DNA of 64,000 bases. It comes from Microbotryum violaceum (lineage: Eukaryota). The stretch's first letter is position 1, and each line of letters opens with the position of its first letter. The translations under genes were made by a program, and so were the position numbers. Location of the stretch: the NCBI GenBank assembly GCA_001244265.2, contig CDLV01000014.1, positions 992,001 to 1,056,000 on the forward strand, written 5' to 3'. The notes under the pieces are model-generated. The model ran no database searches, was not told the DNA's origin, and worked only from the letters and a program-made list of their open reading frames with translations. Of the stretch, positions 4,213 through 62,446 are shown one piece after another.

Positions 4213-4593
4213 TTCCCGACTGCGCTCCAAAGGCTTGTTCCCGGAGCAACGCCGATGGCTGCTGGTGTTTCTGATGCACGCTCCTACAAGAGGCTCTGTG
4301 TGTCTCATGACTGTGAGATCCATCTCATTACAATCCTCGACTTTTGCTTTCTCTAATGATACTTGGGTTTGTCAATTCGTAAGAGTGGGATCAGGACGCG
4401 AGCTGCTGAACTCCCCGAATGACTAGAGTCAGCGAATTGAGAACCTTGCTCGATCGGTACCGACGCTGGGAGCGGAGGGTAAGGGTTGTTCGAGCCAAAA
4501 CTATCCGTTCATTAGGCGTCTGATGTACCTTTCCCCAGACCTCAGCTTACGTGATCATACGCCATGTGTACGTTCTACACGGAACGGCCAATC

Positions 4594-5249
4594 TCAGCCC
4601 GAAGCCCGCACGGGAGCTTTCTTTGCGATCCAGGACGGCTCAGGCCCAGTCATGAACCTTGACGACTTGACCTGGCTTCGTTGACGGCCTTCGGCATTCT
4701 TTTCCCGTACCTTGATGGCGGTGACAAGCTTTCGACGCGGCTGAGCGGCCGTGGATGCTGAGTGATTATGCGATGGATTCGAGCAGGTGTGAGCTTCGTG
4801 TGGGGTGCCACTTTCACGTGATTCGCTGCGCAGATCGATCGGAACGAGCGTCGATGTCATGGCAAGACGACTCAAATGCTCGGCTTGGTGCTGCAAGAAG
4901 CGACGACACAAGATCGAGTGGTGTCAACATCCAGCTGAGCAGTGATGGGGAGTCTGCTAAGCAAGACGGACTTCGAGATTGTCACGATAGATCTCGGCGT
5001 CCATCCATCGCTCGGATTGTTCTTGACTTGCTTCGACGAGTCCGCGAGATGCATCAAACTCCGAACTGGATTGGGTCGGCACCAAAGTACACGACAGTCA
5101 GCCGTTGCGAGCGGAGGGATGTTGGGGGGGACGAACCGAGCTCGAAAGACGATGAGGTTGGTGCGGTGATGGTCTGGCATTCTAAGGGCGATACGTAATA
5201 TCGAGCGGTACAGAGCAAGTGTGGTCGCTCGAGGTGATATGTTGGACAT
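4594..5249 (-). CDS. LYR-motif (Complex1_LYR) mitochondrial protein with basic C-terminal extension, 3 exons
   Basis: MSNISPRATTLALYRSILRIALRMP...FRAR|SEFDASRGL...IYRDNLE|HQAEHL.... The LYR tripeptide and downstream R.EF motif are present, and both introns restore the frame. Confidence 0.8.
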
Positions 5250-6659
5250 TGCGACTCGGCTCTGTCTCGCTTCGAGGCTCTGCAAGGGCTTGATTGAACG
5301 GTCCGCGGTTAGTTCAGCAAAGAGTGCGCGTGATAGGTAACTGGTGGAGGAAGTGCTCACATTTCTTTGATCCAAAAGGTTCACTCCGAGGTCGCCAGCG
5401 GGCCTGCATCCCACATGCGCCGTGGTTGTCCCAGATCGGCACGGAACGAGTGCGAAGGTGCGCGCCCGGCAAGAAATCGGAAGCGCGAGTTGACGCGCTT
5501 CGGCCGGCCCCTGACACGCTGCGGCTGGCAGCGCTCCGTGCGAGAAAATAGAGGTATGGAATTGGATGCTTGAGAAGCAGGTCATTTGGTCTATTATTGA
5601 TCCCGTAGCATCGCTGTTTCGGTGATGTGACCACAGGTTTTCCCGTTGTTTTGAGCCAAGCAGGGCTCCCCATTAGATGTCTAGATATCTATCTTAGCAC
5701 ATCTCGCTAAGATATAGATGTCATCTTATCTAGGGGCCAAATATCTTAGATAGATAGATAAGGCCCCGGGGGTTTCCTCAGATATCTTTAGACATCTTAA
5801 CTTTTTTTGTGTTTGGTACAGACTCCTGTTGCGTTGGAAGTTGTAGTTTCCCCTAAGGAGGTTCTTGCTCGCTAGCGAGGACATCGACTTTCAAATCGTG
5901 TTCGGCTCAATGCCCATGTTTGTGCCGCAGGGTTTGGCCCAAGCGCTAACCGCGGGTGAGGCGTCCCGGGACGGCTTGCCGACGGGCCAATTTGGAAGCT
6001 GAGGCCTTCAGACGTTTTTGCTGCCAGAGCGTGCTTCATCAACTAATCACACAAATCGCACGAAGAAAGAAGGTGCAATTGCGACATTTTGGGAACTTCA
6101 ATGTACCCGCGCCGTTTTCTCTTCTTTCGTCGCACACTCGCACTCACACCTCGCCGAACGACTATACTAGTAATCGATAGTCTTTGCTAAAGCAGCTTGG
6201 AGTCGGACGTCCGTACGGCTGAGGAGGAGCTTGCGAGTACGAAATTCGCCACCAACGATGAGGCACAGACTTACTACTTTCGACTGAGAGGAGGCTCTGC
6301 AAACGATCGCTGGCAAGCTAGCTAGTTCAGCTGAGAAAGTAAAGTTAAGGACGTCATGGCGGTCGTTCCCAGCGGAGGTGGAGATTTCGGACGACTCTGA
6401 CGACACTGATTAGCACAACGATCGGCCTCAATGCATTCTCCCGCTTGACCAAGCAAGAATTCTACTTCCCAGCACTTATCAATAAAATAGAATCAGAAAA
6501 CAGTGAACAGAAAGCCAGCTTTGCCTGTTCATCCACATTTTGTGATACTTAAATTGTGGTACTGGCCACCCAACAGGCTCCCACGAGTCCCAAACGACCG
6601 CCTCCAAGCGAAGATATCTGGCATCTTATCCTTATCCTTAAAACTTATCTTCTATTCTA

Positions 6660-14400: not shown

Positions 14401-16450
14401 TCCGCTGCTCATCACGATGACGTACGACTCCAACTCACCGGAAACCAAGGCTGCACTGGGGCCGATACAGCGTGCACCGTCCGGATCTCATTGCACGAGT
14501 GTTTGAAGCCAAGTCCGGCAACAAGCGACATGAATATAAGATGAATGGATTTTGTTTCTTTGCTGTACTTCGTATTGTGTTTTCTTAAACTCTGCGCTGA
14601 TATCATGTAGACTGTTCGATTATCCTGCTATTGTTTTAATTTCATCCTCCCGTTAATTTAACGGGTTCCCACTGGTTGATGACAATCTCAACATCAGTAA
14701 TTCTCGTTGGGCGGCTCTGGTGGGGCGGGGTGGGGGGAGGCGCACTTGGGAAAGTGGCAACGGTCTCAACGTTACATTAGTAATCCTCGTTGGCGGGGGG
14801 CGGCTTCCGCACAGGCCCGCGCGTGCGACTCATTGGACAGCATCTGCAGTGGGAGCTTGGCTTGACAAGAGGCAGTTGCTCTTGCCAACATGGCGAACGA
14901 GTACAGTACGTTAAACATGAAATGAACAGATTTGCTTCCTCACATTCGCTTGACGAGGATCTAGTGATCAGGTGCTCGTTGCGACAGCTCGTCTTGTCCG
15001 TCAACCTTCATGCAGTGTGAACAACTGCAGATTCTCTGTCAGGCTCACAACTTGCAGGGCTATTTTCTTCGGCGATCAAAAAAGACTACAGAATTGTATT
15101 TGGGTATTCTATTTTTCTATTATCTTCATGCGAGAGTGGCTACATCTTCAAGCGAAGCACAGCCAATGACATCCTCAGTGGCTGGAATGCCAAATGGCGT
15201 GCTGCAATCACTGATTCGCGTGGTCCATCGGCGGAGCGACCTAGAGGGCCAGCCCGCTTACTACTAGATGTTATTATAGAGGCTGACTCGGGGTACACTT
15301 TGTGTGTTCAGTCTCGAGCACAAGCTTGCTTCCGGAAAGGCAGCGGCCGGAGCGGCACCGTGACTTGCTCGTCTCGTCCGAATCCGAGGCAAACTTGTTG
15401 CGACTTAGGGCATGTCCAAGTTGCGATCCTTCCTTTTCTGAACATGGTGCAACAGCATTGAACTTGGGAAACATTTAATGTAAGTTGAATCCGTTGCAAA
15501 GAAAGACAGAGACCTGACTCCTTCCCCTTTCTCACCCTCACTGCACCGGCCCGGCCACTGCGATCACATTCAAGTTCAACACACCAGATTGAAGCCGCAG
15601 GTGGTCTTCATCCACCACCAGTTGATCACACCCAGGATTTAAGTAGTGATGTATATTTTTGCCTTTGTGTGCTCCAGCGTCTGGTGATTGGGCGGACACG
15701 GGTGCGTGCAGTCATTAGAAAGATGGAGTCACCGAGGGCGGCCGGTGCTGGAGGCCGGGGTGATTTCGCCACAGTTCCCACTTGGACCCGAAGAACATTC
15801 TCGACCTGCCCAATTACAGTCGATTTTATGCGGAGGTCCGAGAGGGGCTTTTTACCGGTCACAAGTACGCGAAAGGATATCCCACGCAACTCCCAGTGAC
15901 TGTCGATGAGCACCCTGGGCGACTTGCACAAGGATATCCCACGCCTAGAGGAAGGTGATCTGTGTGCGGCTGTCTCCACCGTCGAGGCTGGCGCTTGGAG
16001 GGACCGGTCCTCCGGCAAACCTTTTGTTAAATTGCATGGGCCTGATGTAGTTTCCTTGCCTGATGTGCGGCAGATGACACGCCAGATCACACCCCCGCCG
16101 ACAGGTCCTAGGCGGGTCATCGCCTCCCCTGTCGAGCGTTCGGACGCCGAGCTGAATATTGACTTGTCGAGCACCGATGGTCATGAGGATGAGTTCAAGC
16201 CCGCAATTCCCCACTAAACCTTTTATACCGGCTGACAGGTTTGGTTACTTGACGTTCAACAGTCACTGACAACTAAGTAGGAGGTAGTGCCTATCCTCGG
16301 GCCATAGTTGTGTGAGTGTGACTTTATAGAGGGCACTGGAGGTTCAGGGACTCGTCGCCGCCCCGCGGTGCATTAATCAAGGCAGAATCAGAAAAATCCA
16401 GATCTGATCTGATCTGATCTGACGGTGATCTGATCTAATGCGGATCCTTG
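11456..16450. mobile_element. hAT-type TIR element with GATCT subterminal repeats, containing a nested Helitron relic
   Basis: TIRs CAAGGGTCCGCATCAGATC and CAAGGATCCGCATTAGATC (rc). Exact 8-bp TSD TGGGCGAT at 11448-11455 and 16451-16458. (GATCT)n arrays at both ends. Confidence 0.9.
12974..14500 (+). pseudogene. Helitron Rep (N-terminal part of RepHel) pseudogene; probable element 5' end near 12052
   Basis: CAHCKARHWE...CCSQGKVQLP, SLHPSAMPLRYPLLFPAGEDGFHP and RYQDAMACV..GKP are Helitron_like_N motifs, with many frameshifts. TCTCTATATATAAAAAGG lies at 12052. No clear 3' end was found. Confidence 0.88.
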
Positions 16451-27806: not shown

Positions 27807-28042
27807 CAGGGTCGCCATCAGGTACAAGCAAGTAGACCGGGTCTAGACCGGTACCTAGTACCTACCTAGGTACTTAGTGACATTAGTGACAACGATTTCT
27901 GGGACCCCCTTGTCACTAATTGGTCACTAATTGGTCACTAATGTCACGTCACGTCACTAATGTCACGTCACTAATGTCATGTCACTAATGTCACGTCACT
28001 AATGTCACGTCACTAATGTCACCTATTAGTGACCCAGCCCTA
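27807..28042. mobile_element. Two fused, non-matching hAT-like termini with GTCACTAATGTCAC tandem repeats
   Basis: Left end CAGGGTCGCC with GGTAC/CTAG repeats. Right end (rc) TAGGGCTGGGTCACTAAT with 14-bp tandem repeats. No shared TSD. Confidence 0.6.
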
Positions 28043-28156
28043 GCCCCCGAGCAACCTTCCGTACGGGTTTGTAAGTTTACCCCAGTCCCAGGCACGCCAC
28101 GACGGGCATCCGCAGGCGCCGATAGGACCCCCGAAAGCCCGGGCCCGTACCCATGT

Positions 28157-28363
28157 CGGGGGGTGGGGGGGAGGAGAGGAAAAGAAAAGAAAAGAAAAAG
28201 AAAAAAAAAAAAAAGAGAAAAAGAGAAAAAAGGAGGGGGAGGAAAAAAAAAGAAGAAGAAGAGGAGAGGGAAAGGGAAAAAAGGGGGGGAAGGAGAAGAG
28301 GGAGGGGAAGAGAAAGAACTTGGAGAAAGAAGAGGGGGAGGTGAAAAAGGAGAAAGAGAGGAA
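28157..28363 (+). repeat. ~200-nt almost pure purine low-complexity tract
   Basis: Nearly only A/G with no regular period. Confidence 0.85.
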
Positions 28364-28499
28364 GTGGTACGGAACAAGTATTTTGACAACAGACTTCATA
28401 TTGCGCAGGTATTATACAGCTACAAAGTTGTGACACTTCTTTTGATGCCAAGCTCGGCCATTCATCTCAGCCCTTGTTAGTCCTCTACAGAACCTTCGT

Positions 28500-30040
28500 G
28501 ATTGTGGGTCGTTCGGATCCATCTCGTCTGTCGGCCCGAAAGGCTTCCCACAGTCCAAGCACGCCCCGTCACACTAAGTCACCGATCCGTCATCGCTTAG
28601 TTTTGACCCCTTGCGTCGACAAGTAGTTTGCCCACATAATCGACAGTGCCTTGCCCCTTTTGTGGTGGTACCCGCGCGCGTCAAAGCGCTGCTCGTGCCC
28701 AAGTCCGCGCTCGAACCAGCGTCGCTCGAGGCAGTTGCAACAAAGGGCGGATGGATGACGTTGGAGGATCCGAGAAATCGACTTCTACCTCTGTAAGCCT
28801 CCCCAAAACAGGCGGTTTGTGACCGAGTAATGGCTTAGCCGCTAGCATGCTAACATCACGACTGCGGGAGGGGTCGGTAAGCAAAGCTTGAATCACTATG
28901 ACGTCGTTCCCCTCCATGTTCATTGTGGCTTGAGCATTTGCCAGCGACGACCATCTCGGTGCCCATGTATTGATGTGCTCTGGCATCTGTGTGAGGATTG
29001 CGCTTCAGCTCAACATCATCACCATTCAGTGTGACACAGACGCGACATACTTTTTAGAAATGTCTAGTCCGTTGACATACTTGTTCCAAGGCTCGGTAAT
29101 CTCGAATATCCGAAGATTTTGAGGAGCTCCCAGTCGTACCTTGCTTGAGAGATATGTGTATAGCGCTCGTTGGCTGGGTGTATGGACATACAATACAGCG
29201 AATCGAGTACCCTGACGTTCCGCTGGCCAGTCGTGGCGAAGCTTGCGATCGGTCGGCAGCCGGCTTTGCATATGCTGTATCGCCGGCGTGTTGTTTTGCA
29301 GCAAGTTCCGTGGCGACCACTTGACGGGCTCCAAACGCAGAGTCCCGCGCTCGACTTGATAGGGCTCGATCAAAAAGCGCATTTGCGCTGTTGGCGACTG
29401 AACAACAGGTACGATGCCGAATGTTTCGGTGGATGGGGTGTAGAGCAGCGGTGGTTGAGTGCCGTGGGAAAAATGCCGAGGTTTTGCGCCTCAGACGATG
29501 TAATTCCACAGTGAGCCAGAGGTCGTAGTGCCCCAGGAATGGTTTTCCGGTACGATTGAACGTCCCAACCTGCGAATACAAGGGATAATGGGTGAAAATG
29601 GTTGCCGCTTCTTCGAATTGCGATGGTGGAGTTGGACTGACCGTGAGATTGTGCACTAGCACGTAGTCAGCCATGCACGCATTGACATGGCTCGGAGAAA
29701 CACCAGACTTTGGAAACCGTTGGCGAAGGTTCCGATGGATGCCTCCTTCGAGACTGTTGGTGTCTCGCTGGCAGAAATATAAACGGACACCTTCATCCGC
29801 CTTTCCATCTGGCCCTCCGCAAGGCGCAAGGTCGGTGTACAACTCAATGCCAACTGGATCCGATACTTGGCCTTTCCGAATCGCCTCAAGACATCTCTTC
29901 GCTGCCTCGTGCGTCGCTTTGTTGAAAAGTGGTTGCTTCGACTTCGCATCGACCGAGCTTCTCAAAGACCTCCCGGACCAAAGGCTCGAGAATCGCCATT
30001 GAGACAGCAAATGAAAACTTGCCAGGTCGTGTAGGTTCAT
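28500..30040 (-). pseudogene. C-terminal remnant of a putative transposase-like protein (resembles the fungal DUF6729/exonuclease-associated family)
   Basis: PLFNK...IRKGQVSDPVGIELY...LYFCQRDTNSLEGGIH...YVLVHNLTVGTFNRTG...GHYDLW, ERQGTRFAVLYVHT, PEHINTW and a terminal CxxC. Family recalled from memory. Confidence 0.7.
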
Positions 30041-30166
30041 TTAAGTAGCAACTGTCTTCTTGCAGAACCACTAAACAGAACCAGCATTCTTTCACAGGCT
30101 CAAATTTTTCGGCTCCCATCCCTTCTGCGTCACGACACTCGTCAGCTTGCGCTTGATCCGAAAAGC

Positions 30167-31095
30167 TTGATCGAGCACCGTCGGGCCCATCAATGTGCCC
30201 ACCTCAAGGCTGTCCTACTCAAGGGAAGGCACGGCGCCCCCACCTCGACTGCCCAAGATTTCAATCCCACATCAAAAGCAAAATTGTCCGAGCACAGTGA
30301 AGTGCACTCCAGTGTCCTCCGAGGCTTAGTGCAATCGATGGGTGCAGCCCGTCTCGAAGCCATGTCAGGAGTTGCGAGGTCCATTCGTTGGACAGGACAA
30401 GGGACCTTCAGTCGCTTTGCGACCGCAAACGAGACAGACAACATAGGATACATCCAAGACGGATGTAAAGAAGTGAGCTACAATCGTGTGCTGTGCACAT
30501 ATGGCCCAGAGAGTGCTCATCAATAATGTTCATTCTTGCCCAGGTACGGATGCAATTGCGAGCAAGGCAATACACGGTATTCGCCGAGATCCCAATGTTT
30601 GGGTCGATTGACGGAAACGTCACGTCAGCCACGCCTTTGAAAATCGGCTCTCTTGTCTGCTTCAGATTGAAACGAGGCATCGTACCTGGCAGTTGTGACG
30701 CCAGCAACATAGGAGAAGAACAATTGTCCATTGGACTTAGTTCGTGCATCTCACTGTAGCTAGCTTACTGCTGTGCAGAGTGAATGGCATCTATTTTACC
30801 TCTCGTAGTACGTTACATGTATGCCAAGGCCACGTCAAATCATTGTGACAGAGCGGAGACCGACTCCCTCGCATTACTCTCGAATGTCGTCCTCCAAGAA
30901 TGGCGAGTTGTGGGCAAGGGCCGTTATTCGACGCATATGATTGACGGCACGACTCGCTTCTTTGGACTCGATGCTCGACAAATTATCCAATCCTCGGAAT
31001 CATCCTCAACGTCCGCCCTCACTCTCGCACCCCAGGATTCAGTCGCATACCTCGGGCCCGGGGGAGCGTGTCTTCGACTTAAGCCAGCAGGCTGA
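30167..31095 (+). pseudogene. C-terminal remnant of a second, oppositely oriented element gene
   Basis: LIEHRRAHQ...GVARSIRW...YIQDGCKE|...FGSIDGNVTSATPLKIGSLVCF...|VRYMYAK...LLSNVVLQE. Conserved at protein level, with the same intron positions, in the copy at 41350-42000. Confidence 0.7.
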
Positions 31096-31502
31096 GGCAA
31101 GGTTCTGTTTTCTTCGGCGCTGCAACGGATTACGAAACGCTTCTGTGTCCTTGAATGATCAAATGAAGGGTGTGAAAGATGTAGGGTCAAAAAGGAAGGC
31201 AGCAAGTGCAGGTGAGGAGCCCTCGGCCAAGCAGAACCGAACTGGCTGACACGCGCGCGTGCTCCGCCGATTCGGCCCGAGCGAAAAACGTCTGGACGGC
31301 GTTTTTGCGATTTTTGGAGATGTTTTAGAGCATTTGAAGCAATTCTAGAGCTATTTTTCGAGGCGCGTAGATGGACTGGACATTTTGGGGACTTTTTTGG
31401 GTGAAAACTCCCAAAAATGGTGGACAAATGAGGTCCAAAATCGGCGATTGTGGCGGATTTTACCTACGCGCCTCGGGCTGGGCTTTCATGGGTCCTGCGC
31501 CG

Positions 31503-34500
31503 ATGCTTTTGTTGGCCCAGGCCCAGGCACCCCAAAGTCGCTCGTCCAACTCGACTTCGTCGTCCTCATCGTCGACGGCATCGAGCGGGAGGTCGCGTAT
31601 GACCAAGACGGCGGTAGCGACCATGACCTACAACCCGTCTTCTTCACACATATTCCCAGGCAAGCGATTACCCCCGGTCGTAGCTCTGATCGGGCACGGG
31701 AACGGCCACACCACGTCGTCGGCGAATGGCAAAGGCTCGCCTCCCCGAGAAGACTCGAGCTTGGCGCCGCATCATCATCACGTCAGCGCTGGTGGTGCAG
31801 GCAGCAGCTCGCATCATTCGCGTGCTAGCTCCGTCTCGGATGCGATCAGTATCCACTCGCAAGCGTCGATGTCGACCACTGGAAACAGCATGTACCGCAA
31901 TGCGATCAGTATCCACTCGCAAGCGTCGATGTCGACCACTGGAAACAGCATGTACCGCAATGCGACCTACTCGCCTCCGCCGGGCCTTTCGATTGAGACC
32001 GAGGCCGACGACTACCTCGGCCAACACGATTTCGGCCACGAGGAGTCGCTGCAGGCGTTCGTGAGCTCCAACGCGTTCCCGACGCGTCCCCAACCGCCCA
32101 GCTCGCTTCCGAGATCGGCTCGAATCGACCAGAGCTGCTCGATCCCCGCTGCAGCTCAGTGGCTTCTATCGACGTCTCCACCCACGGTTCGACGCGCTGC
32201 CTCGACCTCGAGCTCGTCTCGCCCCGCGTCCTACTCGGCAAACGGTCGGCCCTTTTCCTCTTACTCGATCCTGCAGAATGGAAGCAGCAGTAGCAATATC
32301 TTCTCGCAGCGCAGCTACGAGCTGGAGAGCAACAGCAACTCAGAATACTCGGGATACTCTTCTACCAGCTCTGGCAAGGGTCTCTCGTGGGGAAAGAAGA
32401 GCTTGTTGAGCGTCTTCGGGCGTGGACCTCGACGGCAGAACCCGATGTCATCCCTGTCGCGACCGGAGCCCAAGTCGATCACACTGCAATTGTCGCGACC
32501 GAACCCGAATCGATCAGGCCGTCTTGACAGTGCGATCTCGCCCGCTGAAGCTCCTAAAGTTTGGGATGACTGGATCAAGCAATATGCGAACGTGAGTTGT
32601 CGCACGGGGGCGCACTTGTGGGTCCTCTGCGCTGTGTGGTTTCTGACCTGGGTCTGATCATCTCTTCCGAGCAGGGTGGTATGGACGTCGAGAATCCACC
32701 CCGACCCCCGCCTCCGATGGCTAGCAATACGTTCCCAAGCTTGCATGCAAGTTCCCGCTCGAGTCGCAACCCTGCTGAGGAAGGCAAACTCTCGGCCCCG
32801 AACCAGCCGCTCGAATCGGTGCGGCAAAAGATGATCGCGCGCCTGGAGCTGTTCGGTCCCATCGAGATCACGAGTGCCCGAACAGCGTCCAGAATGGTGA
32901 CACCGATAGCCAGCTCCTCGTCTTCGCAATTCACTCAAGGAACAGATCGAAACTCGTCCTTGTTTGACCGCCGCGCATCGAATGGCTCGACTGCGCAATC
33001 ATCCGTTTCGGCCACGAGCTCGGAATCGACGCCGGCTTTCCTCAACTCGGCGGGGTTCAACGACGTGCCAGAACCGCCGTCCTGCCTCTCTTTTGCGAAT
33101 CACCCATCACTCGCATCGATCTTGAGGCGGGCGAAGAACACGTTCGGCGTCAGGATCGTGCTCGTGGCGGTCTTGCTCGAAGACAAGCAGCGATTCTTGG
33201 CCGCCACGGGAATGCCCAAGGGCGTTGAGTCGCTTCCTCGCGAGGTCACTTTCTGCGCTCACACCGTCCTGAATGGCGAGAGAGGTCTTGTCGTCCTTGA
33301 CACGCAGCGAGATTGGAGGTGAGTTGCCGTGGGGTTTTTAACTGTTTTTATTTGTTTTTGGAGAGACTAACGAGCCCCCATGACTGCCATCCCCAGGTTC
33401 CGAAACAATGTCCTGTCAGTTTCGGTCAACGCGCGTATGTATGCTGGGATGCCCATATATCCACCTTCCAATGCCGAACTGGAAGAAGAAGCCGGCGGAC
33501 GGCTTCCGATCGGAACCCTGTGTCTACTCGACGATCGTCCTCGAACAGAGTTCACGCAGTCGGAGCGTGCACAGCTACGCGCTCTCGCGAGTGATGTTTC
33601 GGTCGAGATCGAGGCGTGGTTCTCCGAGCTGCGGTCTTCCGTGGTATCACTTTCGTCCTCGATGGCCGACTTGTCGCACAATCAGGTCATGCAGGTTGCG
33701 TTTGACAAACCCTCGCCTTCATCAGGGTACACCGACTGGAACGTGCTCAAGACGCCAGTTGCATCGACTTTCCCGAACTCGAGTCCCAGCAAGATTGTGC
33801 AGTCGCCGGCGTCTGTGTCCTCGATTAAGCCCGCGCTCAAGTGCCGGCCCAACGACCCAGCAACATACACGGCCGTGTCGCTGTCGAGCCATGTGCCTCA
33901 GGCCCTCCCTACAACGCCCAAAGAAGAGATCGCACGCCATCTCCACACGGGCCGCAGTCAAAGGATGAAGCCGAGAATCAAGCCCGATATCCCGGTTCGT
34001 GACGTTCGCCGATCGGCGTTATCGCCCGAGGTCAACCCTGCCACTTCCAGTCCAGAGTCGTCTGCTTGTTTTCAGAACGTTTCCCCGACCTTCATCCGCC
34101 AGACGTTTCCATCGGCCAAGACACGACCGCAACCTCGAACGCTTCATCAAAAGTTGCTTGACTCGGCGATCAAGTCGCTTGGCGATCGTCTTGCGCTCTC
34201 GCTCGTGTACCTCGTTTCGATGTCGAACCTCTCGGAGGAGGGGCCCCACGCGCTGGCACTCCTCTCCGCACACAACCTGCCGGCCACGACGCCATCGTTC
34301 GACTCGGCATTACACCTCAAAGCACTCCGAGCCGCCGAAGGGGGTTTGCTCTATCGTAACCCCGCTATCGCGACGCTCGGTCCGAATGAAGAGTTCCAGG
34401 GCCCCGGTTTCGCGTCGGGGATCCTTTTGCCCGTTGCGGAGCGGGAGGGTATGGGCTGGGTCTTGGCGGGGTACACCAAGGATGCGACGCGTGTTTTCTC

Positions 34501-34591
34501 CGAAGAAGAATTGGATCGTTTCGTTGATATCTCGGCTCAACTCGCCCAACTCGTCGCGGAGGATCCACCGACGATGGATGCCGAGTTATAA
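31503..34591 (+). CDS. GAF-domain protein (Ser-rich N-terminus, GAF, probable second degenerate GAF; no kinase domain seen), 3 exons
   Basis: PREVTFCAHTVLNGERGLVVLDTQRDWR|FRNN...MYAGMPI...PIGTLCLLDDRPRTEF. Introns at ~32592-32673 and ~33319-33397. The true start may lie upstream of the TE. Confidence 0.85.
31840..31959 (+). repeat. Exact in-frame 60-bp tandem duplication within the GAF gene
   Basis: AISIHSQASMSTTGNSMYRN twice, bounded by ATGCGA microhomology. Confidence 0.95.
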
Positions 34592-41349: not shown

Positions 41350-42500
41350 GGCAAATAAATGCCCGACGTCGTCGTCGATCGAACGCGTGCCACTCACGGA
41401 GCGCTCACAACAAACGAGATTCAGAAGAACGCCTATATTGAGGACGGCCGCATTCAAGTGAGTTGTTGCTGAATTTAGGAACGAAGGCAGCTGGATCTAA
41501 TGTTTTGCCGGTCCTATACTTTTAGGAAAAGCTCCCTGAGAGAGACAAGCAGTACGGAGCGCTAGCACAACGCTATCCTCATTTTGGATCGCTTGACGGA
41601 GCTGTAACCGCTGCCACACCATTGGAGATTGGATCTCTGATCTGCTTTGGCCTCAAGCGTGGCATGCATTCACTCAGCTGCGATCAAACTGCTTATGGAG
41701 AAGAAGCGCTGTCTATCGGAATTGGTACATTGTTTTGAGTGTTAGTTGAGCTGTGAAGTTCTCGTTTGACACAAGTCTTGTGTCCTACAGTGCGATACAT
41801 CTACAGCAAAGTGACAACAAACCACTGCAACCAAGACACGCTCGCCTCGTTGGTTCTACTCTCAAATGTCGTCGTACAGGAGCTTCGCCTCATCAAGAAA
41901 ATATGCTATTCCACATACCTCATTGATGGCACTATGCCGTTCCGCATGATTGATGGTCGACAGATCATCGAGTCATTAGGCCCGTCAACGACTACATATC
42001 GTTCAACCACGGACCTTACCTCATGTTACCCGGACGAGCGCCTAATCAGCACGAGCGCACATGCCGAGCAAAGGTTTGCCGCCCTTCGGAGCGTGCCCGG
42101 CCTGCGAGATGCCGCCGGCAGAACCTCTACAAGCCGCACAAATGCCACCGCTTAAACAAGGAGCTCAACTTCAGCAAAAAGGAAGTCTGACAACGAAGCA
42201 GCGAGCCAGCCAGCAAAGCAAGGAAGGCTTGTTTGAAGCGTGGAGCCACGCGCAACACCAGCTGAAGCGATGCGCGCCGCGAGCCACTTTCGATAGGCCG
42301 CCGCGCGCCCGCAAACGCTCGGAACGCGTTTTCGAGGACTTTTGAGCGATTTTTGGAGCATGTAGAACACATTTTGATAATATTTCCGAGGCGCATGCGA
42401 GATTTTGACATTTTGGGGCCAAAATAGGGTAAAAAACTTTGACAAAAAGGCCAAAAAATGGCGTTTTTTCGTTCGCATGCGCTGGGCTTTCGGGGGTCCT
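41350..42500 (+). mobile_element. Truncated diverged copy of the AGGACCC-family element (right end plus gene remnant)
   Basis: Ends GCTGGGCTTTCGGGGGTCCT at 42500. Subterminal GAGGCGC..GACATTTTGGGG as at 31360-31390. Peptide FGSLDGAVTAATPLEIGSLICF|VRYIYSK...LLSNVVVQE is homologous to 30590-31000. Confidence 0.82.
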
Positions 42501-43234
42501 GGCACCCAGTGCAGTGAGCCTCGACAACCAGGGTTTTTCTCTTGAAAAACGGTCATCATCTCTGAATAACAGCACAAGTATCTTAGTATTTAGAGATCCT
42601 CAGGGAAGTTGCCGCAGGAGCTGGCAGCATCAATCATCACACTCGACTTAAGATGCACCTACTATGCGGGTCAAATTAAGTCTGCCAAAACAACTAGGTC
42701 GCGCGCAACGCATTAAGGCAGCTGTTTTGAAATTTGGCCCAGGAAATGGTTGGTACAGGCATGGTATACCATCATCCCCCCCACCCCCACCCACGGCCCG
42801 CGCCCGGAGGCAGAATAGTGGCTAAGGAGTGCACTTGCTAACTCGCCTACGCTAATCGGCCCTTTGCCTCAGCCCATGGCACTGGCACCCCCCACCTTCA
42901 AGCTTCAAACCTCCCCCACCGCCTTGCACTCATCGGCATCGCTTCAAGCATGGGCTCCCTGCGACACACACCGCCACTATAACAAGCAAATCCAGCGTCC
43001 CTAGTAGGGAAAGAAAAGGAAAAAGACACCAAGACCAAGTGTAAGAAATTCACGAGGCGGAGGAAGAAGAAGGCGGCTGACACGATCATCGAGAGCGGGG
43101 CGACCACGGGACCAGAGGAGGGGGCGAAGAAGAAAAAGAAAAAGAACAAGATGAGGTCATGGCCCATGCGAGAACGAAAAAAGGAGCCAGTCTTGTCCCC
43201 GAAGAGCGAGGCGTTTGTAAAATCCTCCGGCTAC

Positions 43235-57033: not shown

Positions 57034-57247
57034 AGGACCCCCGAAAGCCCAGCCGGAGGCGCATTTTTTTGTGACATTTTGAGGACCCAAAATCCTGAAA
57101 ATCATCGAGGCGCATTGCAAAATTTGACATTTTGGGACGAAACACTCGTTTTGCCCCCGAGGCGCCTTTGCAGATTTTGACATTTTCCCGTGAGTCGGCC
57201 CAATTTTGGCCTACCCCGAGCAGCCTACGGCATGACTGTTTGCCTTC
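57034..57247. mobile_element. End of another AGGACCC-family element, interrupted by LINEs
   Basis: AGGACCCCCGAAAGCCCAGCC followed by GAGGCGCA..GACATTTT subterminal repeats. Confidence 0.75.
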
Positions 57248-57417
57248 TTTTTTTTTTTTATCTAATAGATTTCATTAACAGCATATCTATATTAATGCCT
57301 AAAAATCCTCGGAAAAGACGGAGGGAATGCAGTTAAGCACACTGGCGAGGCCAGTAGTGTGGGACTCGTTGACCTTGGAACAAAATCAACCATACCCACT
57401 AAAACCCCCTTAGGCGG

Positions 57418-60400
57418 TTACAGCGAAACCAGTCGTCCCTTGGACTCCTGGATGGACGCGCGGAGCTCCTCAAATGCCGTTTCGGCGATCGGCTCCAGAG
57501 GATCCGACGAAAATCGACGGCGACGAGAGAGCTTCCAGATCGCGTGGAAGAAGAGTAGACGCAGCTCGACGGGTCGGCGTTCCGAGCGAGAAACGACCGG
57601 GCACACGAACTGAACAAAGTCGGGGTGTGGGATAGGAGTGAGCGCAGACCAGAGGCGGCGGGCAAACGGGCAACCGACCGCAAGGTGTGCCAGGGTCTCC
57701 GGAGCCTCCGACAGGCACATGACACATGCGGTAGATCGATTGTGGAGAGAACGGCTATTTGGAGAAGCGATTTGGCTACCTGGATGAAGTGAACCTAGGG
57801 AGAGGAGGTGGGCCGTGTCTTCGGCGTCCGAATGAACCCTGCGAATCTTGCGTAGCGCCTTCCACCAGGCATTCCAGCGTTGCTCGGGGAGACAGAAAAC
57901 CCTCTGATGACCGAGAGGGAGGATAGGAGGGTAGAGGAAGGCTTGGTGGCGTTTGGACGCGTTCACAAACGAAGACGGAGTCATCACCTCGCCATCGGGT
58001 CCTCGGAAAAGCGTCGGGTTCACCGAGAGTCGGATTCCGTGGCCTGCTGGGAAGTAGAGGACGTGTGTTGCCCACCGCTCCAGATTCGGGCTCTTGGAAA
58101 GTTCGGGGGGTTCAGCGTTGTCACCAAATCCCAGGCTTCGAAAAAGCGGATCCATCGTGGAGGGAGCAGGGCCTTCGTCTTCCTCACTGCGCGTTCCCAC
58201 TGTGGAGGAGGGTGGCAAAAGTAGGCCCACCAGATCCAGACCCACGAGCGACGATGTGGGTTGGGGCCTGATTTGGGCAAGGTAAAGGGGGTGCGTTCGT
58301 TCGCCGCCTGAAGGCGAGTGCGGATGTCGAAGAGGTGCCGAATGAAGCAGCCGTCCGGGTCCCGAAGATGAAAGACCCACTTGGCGTGATCGACCGCGAG
58401 GCGCCGAGGTAAGTCAATCAAGCCAAAGCCGCCGTGGTCGAGAGGGGTGCAGAGGCGCAGCCGAGAGACCTTCGGGGTTTCTGAGATCCGTCCGAGGCTC
58501 GACCGTGGATAGCGATCATGACCGCGTCCTCGATCTCCTTGACGACGCTCTTGGAAGCTGGGATGAAACGATTATGGTAGAGAATCTTCGTGTAGCAGTA
58601 GATATTGATTATCGAACATTTCGCTGCGTACGGAAGGTCGTACATTGGGATGGATCGTATCCGGGCGACGGTCGCGGACTTGACCTCCTCCCAGCCCGCA
58701 TCCTCGGCGATGTCCACCCCAACCTGCACTCCCAGGTAACGAAACTGCGAGTCGCTGAGACGCCAGGACCCGAGGTGTGAAGGGATCGGACGGTCCCTGA
58801 ATGACCCGAGGGGGTAGAGGAAAGATTTGGCGTTGCTGAGCTTGCTGGCACTTGCCCGCTCGTACAGCTCGATCGCCCGATTGAGGTGGTCGAGGTCCGA
58901 GGTGTCGTGGAGAGCACAGCAGGCATCGTCGGCAAAGAGAAGTTCTCGTATGGTTGGGAGTCCCGGGCTCGCGATGCCCTTGACTTGTGACCGCAACTGT
59001 ACGGCGAAGCCCTCAATTGCGAGAACGAAGAGCGACGGAGCCAGCGGGTCGCCTTGTCGAACTCCCGAGAGGATATCGAACGCGGCCGAGAGCCATCCGT
59101 TGAGGTAGATTGAGGCGGATTGGTTTGTATAGGTCGCTCGGTACCATTGGCAGGCTTTCGGGCCAAGGCCAACGGCGCTGAGGACTGCATCGATGTAGGT
59201 GTGGGAAAGACGGTCGTAAGCCTTCTCGAAGTCCATCACTGCGAGCAGACCGGACACCGGCTCTGAACCCGGGAGCCCAGGATCCATGAGACACTGCACC
59301 TCGGCGATGTTCGTGCCAATCCAGCGGTTCGGAATGAAACCGCGCTGGGTCGAGCCGATCAGGGTCTCGAGCAGAGGGGCAAGGCGCTGGTTGTGGGCTT
59401 GGGAGATGATGCGTTCATCAGCGTTGATGAGTGATATGGGGCGTTTGTTCACCAGCCGATCCCTCTCGCCGCGCTTGTGGATGAGGTGGATGTGGGCAGT
59501 GTGGCGGGCCGACGTTCGAGAACTGGCGTCGTCGGTGGGGATCGAGTTGATGACGTCGCGGAGGATGGGGCCTGTGGCTGTCCACGTTGCGCGGTAAAAC
59601 TCGACCGGGAGACCGTCGGGTCCAGGCGAGGAGTTCGACTTACACGCCTCTTGTGCCTTTGTTATCTCCTCTAGGGGGTACACTCCTTCGAGCTTGTCCG
59701 AATCGGCAGGGGATAGGCGAGTCGAGGCGAGACCGTCGATAATCTTCTCCAAGGCGTCGTCATCGATAGCGCGATCCTCGTAGACCCCTTCGAAGTACTT
59801 GCTAGTGGCTCCAAGCATCGAGTCGGGGTCGGAGTGGACGACATTGTCGACCGAGAGGGAAGGGATGAGGTCGGATGCGCGCACTTTGCGTAGGCGGATG
59901 AAGATGGAAGATGGGCCCGCGAGGGAAGGATCAATGCGGGACCGCAGCGCCGCGCCGTAGCGCGAGTGATCTGCCTTCGCCTCCTCCGATCCTCCACGTC
60001 GGAAGCGGGCAAGTGTGCGAGCCAGAGCCTGAAGCTCGGGCAGCAAGTGTTGTTTGGTGGACGTCCAAGCTGCTGATGGGTCGTCGGGCGTCTGGAGGAG
60101 GGCTTCATTGTAGAGGGCCTGGACAGTGGAAGTGAGGTATTCGCAGGTCGCGTCGCCCTCGATCACGTGCAAACCCAACTTGAATTTACCCGGACCGATG
60201 TCGATTGCGCCCGGCACTTGGAACCGCGCCGCCACCATCGAGTGCGTCGATTTGAGGACAGGAGCCCAGATTTTGTGGTCGTGGAAGAGGTCGACCCAAT
60301 CAGGCGAGACATAGATGCGGTCAAGGCGACGGCACGTGCCGGGCGCTGAGCGATTCGTCGTGGCTCGTCCTTTGGGATGGTGAAGCCGATAGACATCAAA

Positions 60401-60987
60401 GAGGTTGTTGGCCGTGGCAAGGTCGCGCATCTCCTGGCCCCCATAATTCGTCCCGTTTTGGTTCTCCGAATCGAGGGGTTGGGACTCAACACAATTCCAG
60501 TCCCCCCGACTAAGAGAGCAGGCGGCGAGGGCTCGTCGCGCACGACTTGTCGGAGGGCTGTGCTGAGATGTGAGAGGAAACGCTTTTTGTCTGGCTTGTC
60601 GGAGGAAGGCGCGTATATTGATACAACCCGGATTTTTGAGTCTCCCACGCGAAAGGTGGCGTCGGTGACTCGGTCGGGGAAAGCGAAAGAGGCACGAAGA
60701 GTGTTGGGAGGTGACTCGGGATCAATAGTGATGACCACGGAGTCGCTCTTCCAGAGTATAGCGGTGTTGTTGAGAGGAGTGAAAAGAGCGGAGAGCTTTA
60801 AGTCTTGGCACTCCTGAGTCCACTGGGCAACCCTTTCCGGGGAAGGTCGGCCCGTTTCGCTCAGGAGAAAGACATCGGCGTTATGGGAGCGGAGATTGGA
60901 GAAAAGAGAGGCACGCTTACGATCTTCATTGATTGACTGCACGTTGGCAGCAACAAAAGACACGTTTGGGATCTTAATTGTGCTCAT
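57418..60987 (-). pseudogene. LINE ORF2 (APE endonuclease, reverse transcriptase, zf-RVT-like), two apparent frameshifts
   Basis: NVQSIN..LLSET, RRLDRIY, SPGPDGLPVEFY, RPISLINAD, DFEKAYD, GVRQGDPLAP, LFADD, YLGV and CVMC..ETLAHLAVGC. Frame changes near 60505 and 58470. Confidence 0.93.
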
Positions 60988-62393
60988 CGTCTTGCTCCAT
61001 AACGTCGTCCACGTCCTCGGGGGGTGCTTCTTGGTCTTTGCCTTCTTCTTCGGCATCTTCGTCGGCGTCGGTGGCATCGGGTCGGGCTTTGATCGCTGAG
61101 GGCAACGGCGAGGAGGGCCGGGGGTTCGGCTCGGAGGCTTCGGGGGCAGGCGGAGTGGGCGGGTCTTCACGAGTGGCTGGTGTGGAGAGGGCAGCAATTG
61201 ACTGGGAACGAGTGATGATCGTCTTTGGCGTTGGTGTGGCCGGAGCAGGGCTTGGGGGCGAAGGGGTCGTCTCCGAGCTGGGGACTCGGAGGATTTTTCA
61301 ACGAGGGGAGGGGCAGTTGACTGGTTGGAGGCGGGCAGGGGGCGGAGTTGGGAGGGAAATTGAAGGAGAAACCGGGGCGAGGAGTCTCCGACAGGGGTTC
61401 AGGCTGAGCCCTGTTAGATGGATCTTGGGGCTGGGCAGCCAGGTCCTGATCTGGGTTCACTCGACGTTTTTTGGTCTTCAACGAGCGGTCGGGCGCGGGT
61501 GGCGCAGGGATCGACTTGGAGGCCGGGGGGGCTTTGGTCATGGTGGAGGCTTGCGCGGCACGTGACTCGGGAGTGCCCTGGGGGCTCGACGCGAAGCGGC
61601 GGCCCGGGCAATGCTGGCTGGCGTGCGAGGTGCTTGCGCACGACTTGCACGCCGGGGCGACGGGGCAGTCCTTACGGACATGGGCCGCGGAACGGCAGAA
61701 AAAACAGTGGCGCATGCCACCGGTGATCCTGAGCGGGATACGCTCGGTCACGCCGTCGCGTTCAATGGAGATGGATGCAGGAGGCAATTTGTTTGGGTCC
61801 CCGAGGGCAAGAACAAAGTCATACACCCCAGAGATGTGCCTAGTCTTGCCAATGTAATGAGTGCGGCGAAGGAGGACCTTGCCGTACTCGGCAATCTGCT
61901 CATCAAAGAGGCGGAGGCCCTCTACATCGGAGAAGAAGCCAGAAAGGGTGCATTGAATTAGACCAGTAGTGGCTGAGAATAGTTTCTCGACTTGGCACAA
62001 GGTCTTTCCAACGGTCAGACCATTCGCGACCAGGTCGGCGATGTCGGCGTCCTTAGGGAATCGGATGCCGTGTTGTCCCTTGATGACGCAGGGCATGGCG
62101 CCTGCAAGGGCCGGGTAGTGGTGATCGAGTGCTGAGAGCACTTTCTCGGAGGTGGTCGCGGGAGGGGTTTTGATGATTACACAGTTGGCGATGTTGTGAA
62201 TCATCGGGTGGGAGGCAACAGTCGTGGCGGTGGCGGGGGTGGCGTTGGTCTTCGCATGGGAACGGGCGGAGACGGCCGCGGAGTACGACTTGGTTTGGGC
62301 GGTGACGGTGACGCCGGTGGGGTCGGGAGGGCGATTAGGTGCTATAGCACCGGGGGTGGCATTGCTGGTGTCGTTGTTGTTGTGGTTGTTCAT
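60974..62393 (-). pseudogene. LINE ORF1 (gag-like, zinc knuckles, acidic tail overlapping ORF2 start)
   Basis: CFFCRSAAHVRKDC and CKSCASTSHASQHC. The acidic tail DADEDAEEE...DDEHN* is in another frame, implying one frameshift. Confidence 0.85.
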
Positions 62394-62446
62394 GCGTGTC
62401 GCCCTGGGTTTGAAGATCACTTATCGAGCTTCGAGACGCGTTTCGC

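What the first reader, a model, noticed from the sequence alone, without database searches (positions are those of the whole stretch)
28124..31496. Unclassified TIR transposon family with two divergently oriented genes inside one pair of TIRs
Seen: ~17-bp AGGACCC..GAAAGCCC TIRs and an exact 8-bp TSD. Inside lie the C-terminal halves of two unrelated genes pointing outward (minus 28500-30040, plus 30167-31095), as if a central deletion removed both N-termini. Further family ends occur at 42500 and 57034. The 41350-42500 copy conserves the plus-strand protein and its intron positions, so that gene belongs to the element. From memory, the minus-strand motifs (SDP.G..LY, R.TNSLEGG.H) resemble the fungal DUF6729/3'-5'-exonuclease putative transposases. 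The plus-strand tail resembles a widespread basidiomycete hypothetical family that may carry a P-element-like DxxH core. Inference: a two-gene, possibly two-transposase, cut-and-paste system that fits no superfamily I can name.
Basis: partly seen in the sequence, partly recalled or inferred. Interest (0 to 1): 0.78.

Follow-up and report, generated by a model that had tools for sequence, protein, structure and literature searches.

The report
One transposon wreck nested in another
The stretch is a dead copy of one cut-and-paste transposon into whose end a second, unrelated transposon jumped before a deletion removed the front halves of both genes, so it is a nested wreck and not a two-gene mobile element.

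Summary
In detail: 17-nt inverted ends at 28124 and 31496, an exact 8-bp duplication (GCGCCGAT), two outward-pointing gene tails, and further ends at 42500 and 57034. The two-gene reading does not hold.

The plus-strand gene (family B) owns these ends. Its full-length relatives in Microbotryum are single proteins of about 1650-1840 aa, with a Ulp1 protease and a DDE-like core. Five of their gene models start inside the translated 5' end.

The minus-strand piece (family A) is the last third of a separate transposase of about 1500-1700 aa. That protein has DUF6729, a Mutator/IS256-like DDE core and an inserted WRN-like 3'-5' exonuclease. Three complete A elements in metagenome contigs carry one gene, their own roughly 23-nt ends (GGCYCGATACT...) and 8-bp duplications. 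That same A end sits in the window at 28142, directly after nucleotide 17 of the B end, followed by the purine tract typical of A 3' ends.

So a B copy inserted, an A element jumped into its 5' end, and a deletion joined the two 3' parts. Neither fragment keeps a catalytic core. The superfamily of B stays open: P-like motif order and an 8-bp duplication, but no HMM or fold support. Interest is modest. The exonuclease-bearing A family may be undescribed.

The parts
28116..28123 (.). left copy of the 8-bp target-site duplication GCGCCGAT
   Evidence: read; identical to 31497-31504
28124..28140 (+). remnant (17 nt) of the family-B 5' terminal inverted repeat, AGGACCCCCGAAAGCCC
   Evidence: 4 matches in the window, 0 of 100 shuffles reach 4; the other three ends continue AGC..., this one does not.
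28141..28164 (-). 3' terminal inverted repeat of a family-A element (GGCCCGTACCCATGTCGGGGGG), lying on the minus strand like the A gene
   Evidence: it aligns with the ends of A elements in L007, L009, L020, L021, L028 and L034; it is the best match to the A-end consensus in the whole window (3 mismatches plus 1 deletion), but 19 of 100 block shuffles reach that score somewhere in 64 kb.
28165..28375 (-). purine-rich (A/G) tract on the + strand, the subterminal region of the A element's 3' end
   Evidence: A-rich or purine-rich tracts follow the 3' ends of L020, L021, L034 and L007 but not the 5' ends.
28418..29998 (-). 3' part of the family-A transposase gene (about the last third: E motif TNSLEGG, C-terminal Cys-rich region). 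It has one intron near 29570-29641, a second intron inferred near 29005-29053, and two frameshifts near 29960 and 29465.
   Evidence: The frameshift near 29960 is shared with gene models P0002, P0009 and P0014. D1, D2, the exonuclease and D-x-x-H are missing.
29999..30106 (.). junction: A homology stops at about 29998 and clear B homology starts at 30107 (possibly from about 30060)
   Evidence: sequence read
30107..31095 (+). 3' part of a family-B gene (about the last 300 codons). Three exons at 30107-30475, 30541-30744 and about 30811-31095. A divergent B lineage, 38-54% identical to the M. silenes-dioicae B proteins.
   Evidence: no in-frame stop within the exons
31096..31479 (+). family-B 3' subterminal region
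   Evidence: alignable with 42230-42483
31480..31496 (-). family-B 3' terminal inverted repeat (AGGACCCATGAAAGCCC; 15 of 17 identical to the left remnant)
31497..31504 (.). right copy of the 8-bp target-site duplication GCGCCGAT; its last bases plus G form the ATG of the downstream open frame
   Evidence: read; ORF 31371-32657
41385..42500 (+). separate 5'-truncated 3' fragment of a family-B element (77-100% identical to M. silenes-dioicae B proteins) with its 3' end at 42484-42500
57034..57252 (+). 5' end of another family-B element: terminal repeat, about 197 nt of leader and the first codons (ATG at 57231)
   Evidence: Gene models P0042, P0055, P0223, P0228 and P0229 translate this same end upstream of the B start.
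57253..62420 (-). LINE (non-LTR retrotransposon) inserted into that B copy; its poly(A) tail appears as a T run at 57250-57262
   Evidence: RVT_1 E 2.2e-20, zf-RVT E 1.4e-4, Exo_endo_phos E 0.0025

Best explanation
The stretch 28124-31496 is a dead, non-autonomous relic built from two independent cut-and-paste transposons of a Microbotryum genome.

**Sequence of events.**
1. Shown: a family-B element inserted and made the 8-bp duplication GCGCCGAT. Its one gene encodes a protein of about 1700 aa with a Ulp1 protease, a zinc finger and a DDE-like core carrying D-x-x-H. Its ends read AGGACCCCCGAAAGCCC...
2. Inferred from the abutting ends: a family-A element transposed into the B element 17-18 nt from its 5' tip, in the opposite orientation. 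Family A also has one gene. It encodes a Mutator/IS256-like DDE transposase with an N-terminal DUF6729 zinc region and a WRN-like 3'-5' exonuclease inserted in the core. Its ends read GGCYCGATACT... and it makes 8-bp duplications.
3. Inferred: a deletion, or an equivalent faulty repair, removed the 5' part of A (with its 5' end) and about four fifths of B. This joined the two 3' parts head to head near 29999-30106.

What remains encodes neither catalytic core. The relic could move, if at all, only through a B transposase supplied by another copy. Whether it ever moved as a composite is not known.
For: **B owns the ends.**
- Five B gene models (P0042, P0055, P0223, P0228, P0229) begin with the translated 5' end, and no A model does, among 243 proteins held.
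- P0037 and P0056 end in the 3' subterminal region that the window shows at 42220-42345.
- The window's 57034 end is followed after about 197 nt by the B start codon.

**B is one large gene.**
- Models of 1517-1840 aa carry Peptidase_C48 (E 6e-5; the profile hits PDB 6dg4 at E 1.2e-5).
- Split B models sit at adjacent locus tags with nothing between them: C008g04987/88, C003g02286/87 and C003g02023/24.

**A is a separate element.**
- phmmer finds 1268 relatives.
- Of 24 long relatives, 20 have DUF6729 plus DNA_pol_A_exo1.
- P0207 of M. saponariae is a full-length A protein of 1723 aa.
- Models P0019, P0024 and P0025 look like internal-deletion forms.
- L007, L020 and L021 hold complete A elements of 5.4-6.0 kb with one gene, ends of about 23 nt and 8-bp duplications in 3 of 3: GATCTATA, CTAATTTC and AGAATAAT.

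**Nesting.**
- The A-type end lies at 28142, on the correct strand and downstream of the A stop codon. It is followed by a purine tract, as at other A 3' ends, and directly abuts nt 17 of the B end.
- It is the best consensus match in the window.

**No pairing elsewhere.**
- No B-like sequence in 42 A loci, 229,963 nt in total.
- None of 24 A tags has a B tag at +-1; the nearest is 2 away.
- A and B profiles are unrelated (hhalign probability 0.2%).
Against: - No Microbotryum genome could be read. No other genomic copy of A, of B or of this composite was seen as DNA.
- The A-end match has 3 mismatches and 1 deletion, and 19 of 100 block shuffles give an equal score somewhere in 64 kb. Its weight rests on place, strand and the purine tract.
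- The other half of the A insertion (5' end and its duplication) is gone, so the insertion cannot be proved by a duplication.
- The B lineage in this copy is only 38-54% identical to the B proteins with full-length models. The gene content of an intact copy of this lineage was not seen.
- One A model and one B model lie two genes apart in M. silenes-dioicae.
- The lists of gene models are incomplete: only best hits and cluster members were seen.
Confidence: 0.8

Rival explanations
1. One reading: a single transposon family that naturally carries two divergent genes, possibly two transposases, between one pair of ends. The copy here would be an internal-deletion derivative.
For: - Both fragments lie between one pair of ends with one duplication.
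- Both families are multicopy in the same genomes.
- One A model and one B model are two genes apart.
Against: - Full-length B models span end to end without A.
- Three of 3 complete A elements hold only A and have different ends.
- None of 42 A loci holds B-like sequence.
- None of 24 A tags is adjacent to a B tag.
- An A-type end lies inside the B end.
Confidence: 0.04
2. The composite arose elsewhere and then transposed here as a unit. It would be a chimeric non-autonomous element moved by a B transposase using the 17-nt left end and the full right end, so the duplication dates from the composite's own insertion.
For: - The ends and the 8-bp duplication are intact.
- The B exons kept here have no stop codon.
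- Nineteen public runs hold 32-43% of the sampled words of the stretch.
Against: - No second copy of the A|B junction or of the B-end|A-end junction was seen. Only this window could be read.
- The left end keeps only 17 nt and none of the subterminal repeats present at the other three ends.
Confidence: 0.12
3. The A fragment was not inserted by transposition. It was copied into a broken B element during gap repair or template switching, as filler DNA or transduplication (as in Pack-MULEs or P-element filler).
For: - The right junction (29999-30106) is a simple break inside both coding regions with about 100 nt of unassigned DNA.
- Internal deletions with filler are common in cut-and-paste elements (established knowledge, recalled).
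Against: The A piece ends exactly with an A-type terminal repeat and its subterminal purine tract. A true insertion predicts this; copying of a random internal piece does not.
Confidence: 0.04

Closest known systems
Nested insertions and internal-deletion derivatives of cut-and-paste transposons (as in Ac/Ds or P elements; recalled)
   Same: An outer element with intact ends and duplication, an inner element of another family, loss of the coding cores, and several deletion derivatives of each family in the genome.
   Different: The inner element landed inside the outer element's terminal repeat, leaving 17 nt of it. Both families make 8-bp duplications.
Mutator-like elements (MULE) and the bacterial IS256 family (for family A)
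   Same: - The secondary-structure order is that of an RNase H-like DDE core, with D106, D176 and E786 in the model of P0061 on beta1, after beta4 and on alpha4. D-x-x-H comes directly after beta5, followed by a helical insertion domain.
- The only row among the 50 shown that is not an exonuclease or an enzyme carrying that fold is the IS256-family transposase ISCth4 (6xg8_A: Z 13.4, rmsd 3.8, 248 of 401 residues aligned).
- IS256 transposases resemble MULEs, and ISCth4 makes 8-bp duplications (PMC7780238, passages).
- The motifs D-x-T/S-H, TDN and TN-x-x-E-G read like MULE motifs (recalled).
   Different: - No Pfam MULE or Transposase_mut hit in any A protein scanned.
- A WRN-like 3'-5' exonuclease (2e6l Z 26.5; 2fbx E 1e-10) is inserted between alpha2 and beta5.
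- The N-terminus carries AT-hook-like RGRP repeats and the DUF6729 zinc region.
- The duplication is 8 bp, against the 9-11 bp usual for plant MULEs (recalled).
P element / THAP9 superfamily (for family B)
   Same: - An 8-bp duplication (the P-element value is recalled).
- A D-x-x-H motif, which the P signature places after beta5 downstream of the second D (PMC8230255, passages).
- The order is helix-turn-helix, then LHVDDT, then SISADGA, then FCRDEKHLAKCLRN, then ...RDRQDDNATHRAFS. This reads like P/THAP9 blocks (recalled, not tested).
   Different: - No Pfam P-family or THAP hit even at E up to 10.
- No sequence hit to any solved transposase.
- The fold was not obtained (model pLDDT 37).
- B has an N-terminal Ulp1 protease and a Cx2Cx18Hx5C finger that looks BED-like (recalled).
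- The catalytic E was not identified.
Ulp1-protease-bearing DNA transposons (Ginger1; Mutator elements of hydra, lancelet and plants)
   Same: The transposase is fused to a Ulp1/C48 protease domain. The literature describes such fusions (PMC2836005, passages).
   Different: In those families the Ulp1 domain is C-terminal to an integrase-like or MULE core. Here it is N-terminal, and the core matches neither by HMM.
Zisupton / KDZ transposons of Pucciniomycotina and hAT elements
   Same: 8-bp duplications (Zisupton: PMC12730594, passages; hAT: recalled). Both occur in rust-related fungi.
   Different: No hit to the KDZ transposase or the hAT dimerisation families of Pfam. No paper in the held library links Zisupton with Ulp1. 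My recollection that the name Zisupton refers to a SUMO protease could not be checked, because the original paper is not held.

Membership tests
   B models run from the translated 5' end to the 3' subterminal region without A. Three of 3 complete A elements hold only A. This rests on protein-level and metagenome evidence; no Microbotryum DNA beyond the window was read.
   None of 42 A loci holds B-like sequence at tblastn E <= 0.01. None of 24 A locus tags has one of 43 B tags at +-1.
DUF6729 + 3'-5' exonuclease protein family (family A) | homology to proteins that carry PF20499 and PF01612 | tested here: met
   phmmer gives 1268 hits. Of 24 long hits, 20 carry both domains and 23 carry at least one. 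The window's piece covers only the region C-terminal to both domains.
Mutator/MULE-IS256 superfamily (family A) | RNase H-like DDE core with the MULE/IS256 fold | tested here: met
   AF2 model of relative P0061, pLDDT 81.9. ISCth4 (6xg8_A) gives Z 13.4, rmsd 3.8, 248 residues aligned. This is a single structural match on a 1093-residue model.
Mutator/MULE-IS256 superfamily (family A) | match to the Pfam MULE / Transposase_mut profiles | tested here: not met
   No such hit in 14, 24 and 9 proteins scanned.
Mutator/MULE-IS256 superfamily (family A) | terminal inverted repeats and a target duplication of 8-11 bp (range recalled) | tested here: met
   Ends of about 23 nt and 8-bp duplications in 3 of 3 complete elements, L007, L020 and L021.
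P superfamily (family B) | 7-8-bp target duplication (recalled) | tested here: met
   8 bp, from the one complete pair of ends.
P superfamily (family B) | DDE triad with [C/D](2)H after beta5 (PMC8230255, passages) | tested here: inconclusive
   Candidate D, D and D-x-x-H motifs are seen in full-length relatives. No E was identified, and the model is too poor to place them (pLDDT 37).
P superfamily (family B) | match to Pfam P-element/THAP9 transposase profiles or a THAP finger | tested here: not met
   The only hits are Peptidase_C48 and weak ones unrelated to transposases (MarR E 0.015-0.13; DUF1924 E 0.013-0.03), in scans at E up to 0.1, 0.01 and 10.
hAT superfamily (family B) | hAT C-terminal dimerisation domain | tested here: not met
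   No Pfam hit. The 8-bp duplication alone fits.
KDZ/Zisupton (family B) | KDZ transposase profile | tested here: not met
   No Pfam hit. The 8-bp duplication fits (PMC12730594, passages).
Ulp1/C48 peptidase (N-terminal domain of family B) | C48 catalytic domain | tested here: met
   PF02902 E 6e-5. PDB 6dg4 E 1.2e-5 and 1euv E 0.0015 with the family profile. The domain is absent from the window's copy, where it was deleted.

The most novel reading that the evidence does not exclude
Family A may be an undescribed, superfamily-level lineage of eukaryotic cut-and-paste transposons.
- The elements are 5.4-6 kb with GGCYCGATACT... ends and 8-bp duplications.
- The single Mutator/IS256-like DDE transposase has a WRN-like 3'-5' exonuclease built into its catalytic domain, between the second D and beta5, and a DUF6729 zinc region in front.
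- A built-in proofreading-type exonuclease could trim or process transposon or donor ends during excision or repair. No characterised transposase that I know of does this (recalled).
- Family B, a Ulp1 protease fused to a P-like core of about 1700 aa, may likewise be an unassigned lineage.
Probability: 0.3. Interest if true: 0.6.

Novelty: new variant of a known kind. Interest (0 to 1): 0.35.

Why it matters
For the window itself the result is housekeeping. What looked like a new two-transposase system is one transposon nested in another and then gutted. Annotators should mask it as two families and should not model genes from it.

The wider value lies in the two families.
- Pfam files the first only as a domain of unknown function plus an exonuclease. 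Here it can be read as a complete transposon with defined ends, an 8-bp duplication and a Mutator/IS256-like fold. That explains why 'DUF6729' proteins are multicopy in many eukaryotes.
- It also raises a testable question: what does an exonuclease do inside a DDE transposase?
- The second family adds a fungal case of a Ulp1-protease-transposase fusion that profile libraries do not assign.

Tried and rejected
**Searches and scans that gave nothing useful**
- Pfam on the window's own ORFs found no family.
- blastn of the element against the window found only low-complexity hits and the 29-nt end at 57034.
- A subterminal motif scan gave 1 hit, and 17 of 100 shuffles do as well. It is not used.
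- Sequence searches of solved structures with B and A proteins found only Ulp1 hits, plus a Helraiser hit caused by the chimeric model P0058. The A protein gave only chance hits at E > 0.3.
- The A-versus-B profile comparison found no relation.

**Structure work on B**
- The AF2 model of B relative P0057, built on 6 sequences, has mean pLDDT 37, so no fold search was run on it.

- No whole genome is held for this window.
The run list (19 rows with 32-43% of words, none with half) was never laid and is no evidence.
- The first alignment was too large for folding and was made smaller.
- The first locus search failed for lack of conserved columns and was repeated with 9 sequences.
- A fuzzy-regex significance test timed out and was replaced by a Hamming scan.

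**Literature**
- No held paper contains 'DUF6729'.
- None contains both Zisupton and Ulp1.
- The search for 'Novosib' matched only 'Novosibirsk'.
- A search for exonuclease-domain transposons gave 3 unrelated papers, seen as listings only.
- Iyer et al. 2014 (PMC3918813) is not held and Bohne et al. 2012 has no PMC id. My memory of what they say about Ulp1 could not be checked.
- Repbase and Dfam were not available. No supplements were opened.

**Other candidates rejected**
- Inverted repeats in L001, L012, L025 and L034 that the repeat finder listed were not convincing element ends.
- The direct 127-nt repeat in L014 looks like an assembly effect.
Full report
**What is in the sequence.** The motif AGGACCCNNGAAAGCCC occurs four times in the window: 28124+, 31496-, 42500- and 57034+. 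The chance expectation is 0.18, and none of 100 shuffles reaches four. The pair at 28124 and 31496 is flanked by GCGCCGAT on both sides, an exact 8-bp duplication.

Two gene tails lie between the ends and point outward. One is on the minus strand at 28418-29998. The other is on the plus strand at 30107-31095. A second plus-strand tail at 41401-42362 has both introns at the same protein positions. The end at 57034 is followed after about 197 nt by a start codon. It is then cut by a minus-strand LINE whose poly(A) appears as a T run. No whole genome is held for the window. All protein relatives closer than about 50% identity come from Microbotryum species.

**The plus-strand gene (family B) owns these ends.** Its relatives in M. 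silenes-dioicae, M. saponariae and M. lychnidis-dioicae include many models of 1517-1840 aa.
- Five of them (P0042, P0055, P0223, P0228, P0229) begin with the literal translation of the AGGACCCCCGAAAGCCC... end and its leader, then run into the B start MALGPFAFASK. None of the A models does, among 243 proteins held.
- P0037 and P0056 end with ...RKRSERVFEDF, which the window encodes at 42220-42345, about 150 nt from the 3' end.
- Where a B copy is split into two models, these carry adjacent locus tags.

So one gene fills the element from end to end. The protein has an N-terminal Ulp1/C48 protease (Pfam E 6e-5; PDB 6dg4 E 1.2e-5 with the family profile). A Cx2Cx18Hx5C finger follows, then a weak helix-turn-helix signal (MarR E 0.015-0.04). 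After that come the blocks LHVDDT, SISADGA, FCRDEKHLAKCLRNA and, in P0221 only, RDRQDDNATHRAFS. From memory this order reads like P element/THAP9 transposases. The P signature does place a [C/D](2)H motif after beta5 (PMC8230255, passages). But no Pfam transposase family is hit even at E up to 10. No solved transposase is hit by sequence. The AF2 model was useless (pLDDT 37 with six sequences). The superfamily of B is therefore open: an 8-bp duplication fits P, hAT and Zisupton alike. The B piece inside 28124-31496 is only 38-54% identical to those proteins, whereas the 41401-42362 piece is 77-100% identical. The element belongs to a divergent B lineage.

**The minus-strand gene (family A) is a different transposon.** The window's piece matches residues of about 103-615 of the 616-aa model P0003. 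An exhaustive phmmer search with P0016 found 1268 relatives at E <= 0.001. The long ones (1333-1643 aa) come from Sporobolomyces, Rhodosporidiobolus, Rhodotorula, Mycena, Agrocybe and other basidiomycetes. They match the query with their C-terminal third. Of 24 long relatives scanned, 20 carry both DUF6729 and the DNA_pol_A_exo1 3'-5' exonuclease domain, and 23 carry at least one.

Microbotryum itself has a full-length copy, P0207 of 1723 aa. It also has models that join the N-terminal region directly to the last third (P0019, P0024, P0025). That is the usual picture of internal-deletion derivatives.

The alignment of full-length proteins shows this order:
- RGRP repeats
- the Cys-rich DUF6729 region
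- AIDHSHK
- FYTDN..DK..LE..FPSL
- the exonuclease
- RSRVLKDxFH
- RGTNxTEGGVH
- a C-terminal Cys cluster

An AF2 model of the 1093-aa relative P0061, built on 77 sequences, has mean pLDDT 81.9. It places the parts as follows:
- D106 at the end of beta1.
- D176 just after beta4.
- The exonuclease at about 207-415.
- D628-x-x-H631 directly after beta5.
- A helical insertion domain.
- E786 on the following helix.

The exonuclease part matches WRN exonuclease (Foldseek 2fbx E 1e-10; 2e6l Z 26.5). Among the 50 rows shown by the wide structural search, the only one that is not an exonuclease or an enzyme carrying that fold is the IS256-family transposase ISCth4 (6xg8_A: Z 13.4, rmsd 3.8, 248 residues aligned). 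IS256 transposases are the bacterial relatives of Mutator-like elements, and ISCth4 makes 8-bp duplications (PMC7780238, passages). Pfam's MULE profiles are not hit. Family A thus works like a Mutator/IS256-type DDE transposase with an exonuclease inserted in the core. It is not a profile-level member of MULE.

**Family A has its own ends, and one of them is in the window.** A scan of metagenome contigs with a 9-protein alignment returned 42 loci that encode A relatives. Three hold complete elements:

| Locus | Span | Duplication |
|---|---|---|
| L007 | 3150-9134 | GATCTATA |
| L020 | 82-5789 | CTAATTTC |
| L021 | 238-5679 | AGAATAAT |

Each is 5.4-6.0 kb and has ends of about 23 nt reading GGCYCGATACTSRTGNTSGTGGG. 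Each has an exact 8-bp duplication and a single gene filling the element on one strand. Single ends of the same type occur in L009, L028 and L034. The 3' ends are followed by A-rich or purine-rich tracts. The 5' ends are followed by GATTCTGAGTTTGAA-like repeats.

In the window, GGCCCGTACCCATGTCGGGGGG lies at 28142 on the strand expected for the 3' end of the minus-strand A gene. It sits about 255 nt downstream of that gene's stop codon. A purine tract of about 210 nt follows it, and nucleotide 17 of the B end comes directly before it. It is the best match to the A-end consensus in the whole window, at 3 mismatches and one deletion. An equal score arises somewhere in 64 kb in 19 of 100 block shuffles. 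So the argument rests on its place, strand and neighbouring tract, not on the score alone. This also explains why the left 'TIR' is only 17 nt, while the three other B ends go on with AGC... and subterminal repeats.

**How the stretch arose.**
1. A B-lineage element inserted at GCGCCGAT (shown).
2. An A element inserted 17-18 nt from its 5' tip in the opposite orientation (inferred from the abutting ends). That A element already carried a frameshift near 29960, which it shares with models P0002, P0009 and P0014.
3. A deletion or faulty repair joined A, at about residue 1290 of the 1723-aa P0207, to B, at about residue 1330-1350 of the 1662-aa P0037, near 29999-30106 (inferred).

What is left lacks D1, D2, the exonuclease and D-x-x-H of A. 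It also lacks the protease, the finger and all candidate catalytic blocks of B. A second frameshift, from a deletion of about 20 nt near 29465, further damages A. I could not test whether the composite formed here or moved here as a unit.

**Tests of the two-gene idea.**
- No B-like sequence is found in any of the 42 A loci (229,963 nt, tblastn E <= 0.01). Eleven of these loci have more than 3.5 kb upstream of the A gene.
- In M. silenes-dioicae, none of 24 A locus tags has one of 43 B tags as its immediate neighbour. The nearest pairs are 2, 4 and 6 genes apart. These lists are incomplete.
- The A and B profiles show no relation (probability 0.2%).

**Limits.**
- I saw no Microbotryum DNA outside the window.
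- The evidence that B is a single-gene element is at protein-model level.
- The B lineage of this very copy has no full-length representative.
- The fold of B is unknown.
- Repbase and Dfam could not be consulted, so either family may already have a name there.
- In the held paper library, no paper contains 'DUF6729' and none links Zisupton with Ulp1. Ulp1 fusions are described for Ginger1 and Mutator elements (PMC2836005, passages). 8-bp duplications are described for Zisupton in Puccinia (PMC12730594, passages). Two Microbotryum genome papers give only class-level counts of TIR elements (PMC4469406 and PMC10502011, passages).

**Verdict.** The feature is real but ordinary in kind: a nested and deleted relic of two DNA transposons. 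The interest lies in the families, above all the exonuclease-bearing Mutator/IS256-like family A. Its ends and duplication length are defined here and it may be undescribed.

Noticed in passing
L007:3150-9134, L020:82-5789, L021:238-5679 (metagenome loci): Complete family-A elements. Each has one gene of about 1600 codons (DUF6729 + DDE core + WRN-like exonuclease), ends of about 23 nt reading GGCYCGATACT..., and an exact 8-bp duplication in 3 of 3. The 5' and 3' subterminal regions differ (GATTCTGAGTTTGAA-type repeats against an A-rich tract).
   Followed up: yes
L014:140-266 and 5862-5988: A 127-nt stretch is repeated exactly at the contig end around an A-type gene. This looks like an assembly cycle (a tandem or circular form cannot be told apart).
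   Followed up: no
window 57253-64000 (minus strand): A long LINE with endonuclease, reverse transcriptase and a zf-RVT-like region. It is inserted a few codons into a family-B gene, with its poly(A) at 57250-57262. Long open frames continue to the window's end.
   Followed up: partly
window 12974-14513 (plus strand): A Helitron-like fragment. It matches the Helitron part of the chimeric gene model P0058 at up to 74% identity.
   Followed up: no
window 31497-31510: The element sits immediately upstream of the first ATG of a Ser-rich open frame (31502-32654). The ATG is formed by the last two bases of the right duplication copy plus G. The insertion is therefore in the leader or promoter of a host gene that continues towards a weak, sub-threshold GAF-domain match at 33371-34588.
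   Followed up: no
window 27877-28035: A 14-nt unit (GTCACTAATGTCAC-like) is repeated in tandem six times, with inverted copies at 27877-27891, about 90 nt upstream of the element. Its origin is unknown.
   Followed up: no
window 31840-31959: A perfect 60-nt tandem duplication inside the downstream open frame. It adds 20 repeated residues.
   Followed up: no
proteins P0055, P0037, P0228 and others against P0221: Most family-B gene models skip a segment (VGRDRQDDNATHRAFSKATLELVTELAEDKK) that P0221 keeps and that looks like a conserved transposase block. The Ser/Arg-rich stretch that follows in all models may be out of frame. The public models of this gene are probably wrong in the catalytic half.
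   Followed up: partly
proteins P0019, P0024, P0025 (M. saponariae) and P0001, P0002, P0004, P0009, P0026 (M. silenes-dioicae): Family-A models join the first exon or the N-terminal region directly to the last third of the protein. Some share one frameshift with the window's copy. This suggests that deletion derivatives of A have multiplied.
   Followed up: partly
window 28116-28123, 57026-57033, 42501-42508: The flanks of the three B ends are GCGCCGAT, GCGCCAGC and GGCACCCA. Two of the three begin with GCGCC, a possible target preference, but three sites are too few to judge.
   Followed up: no
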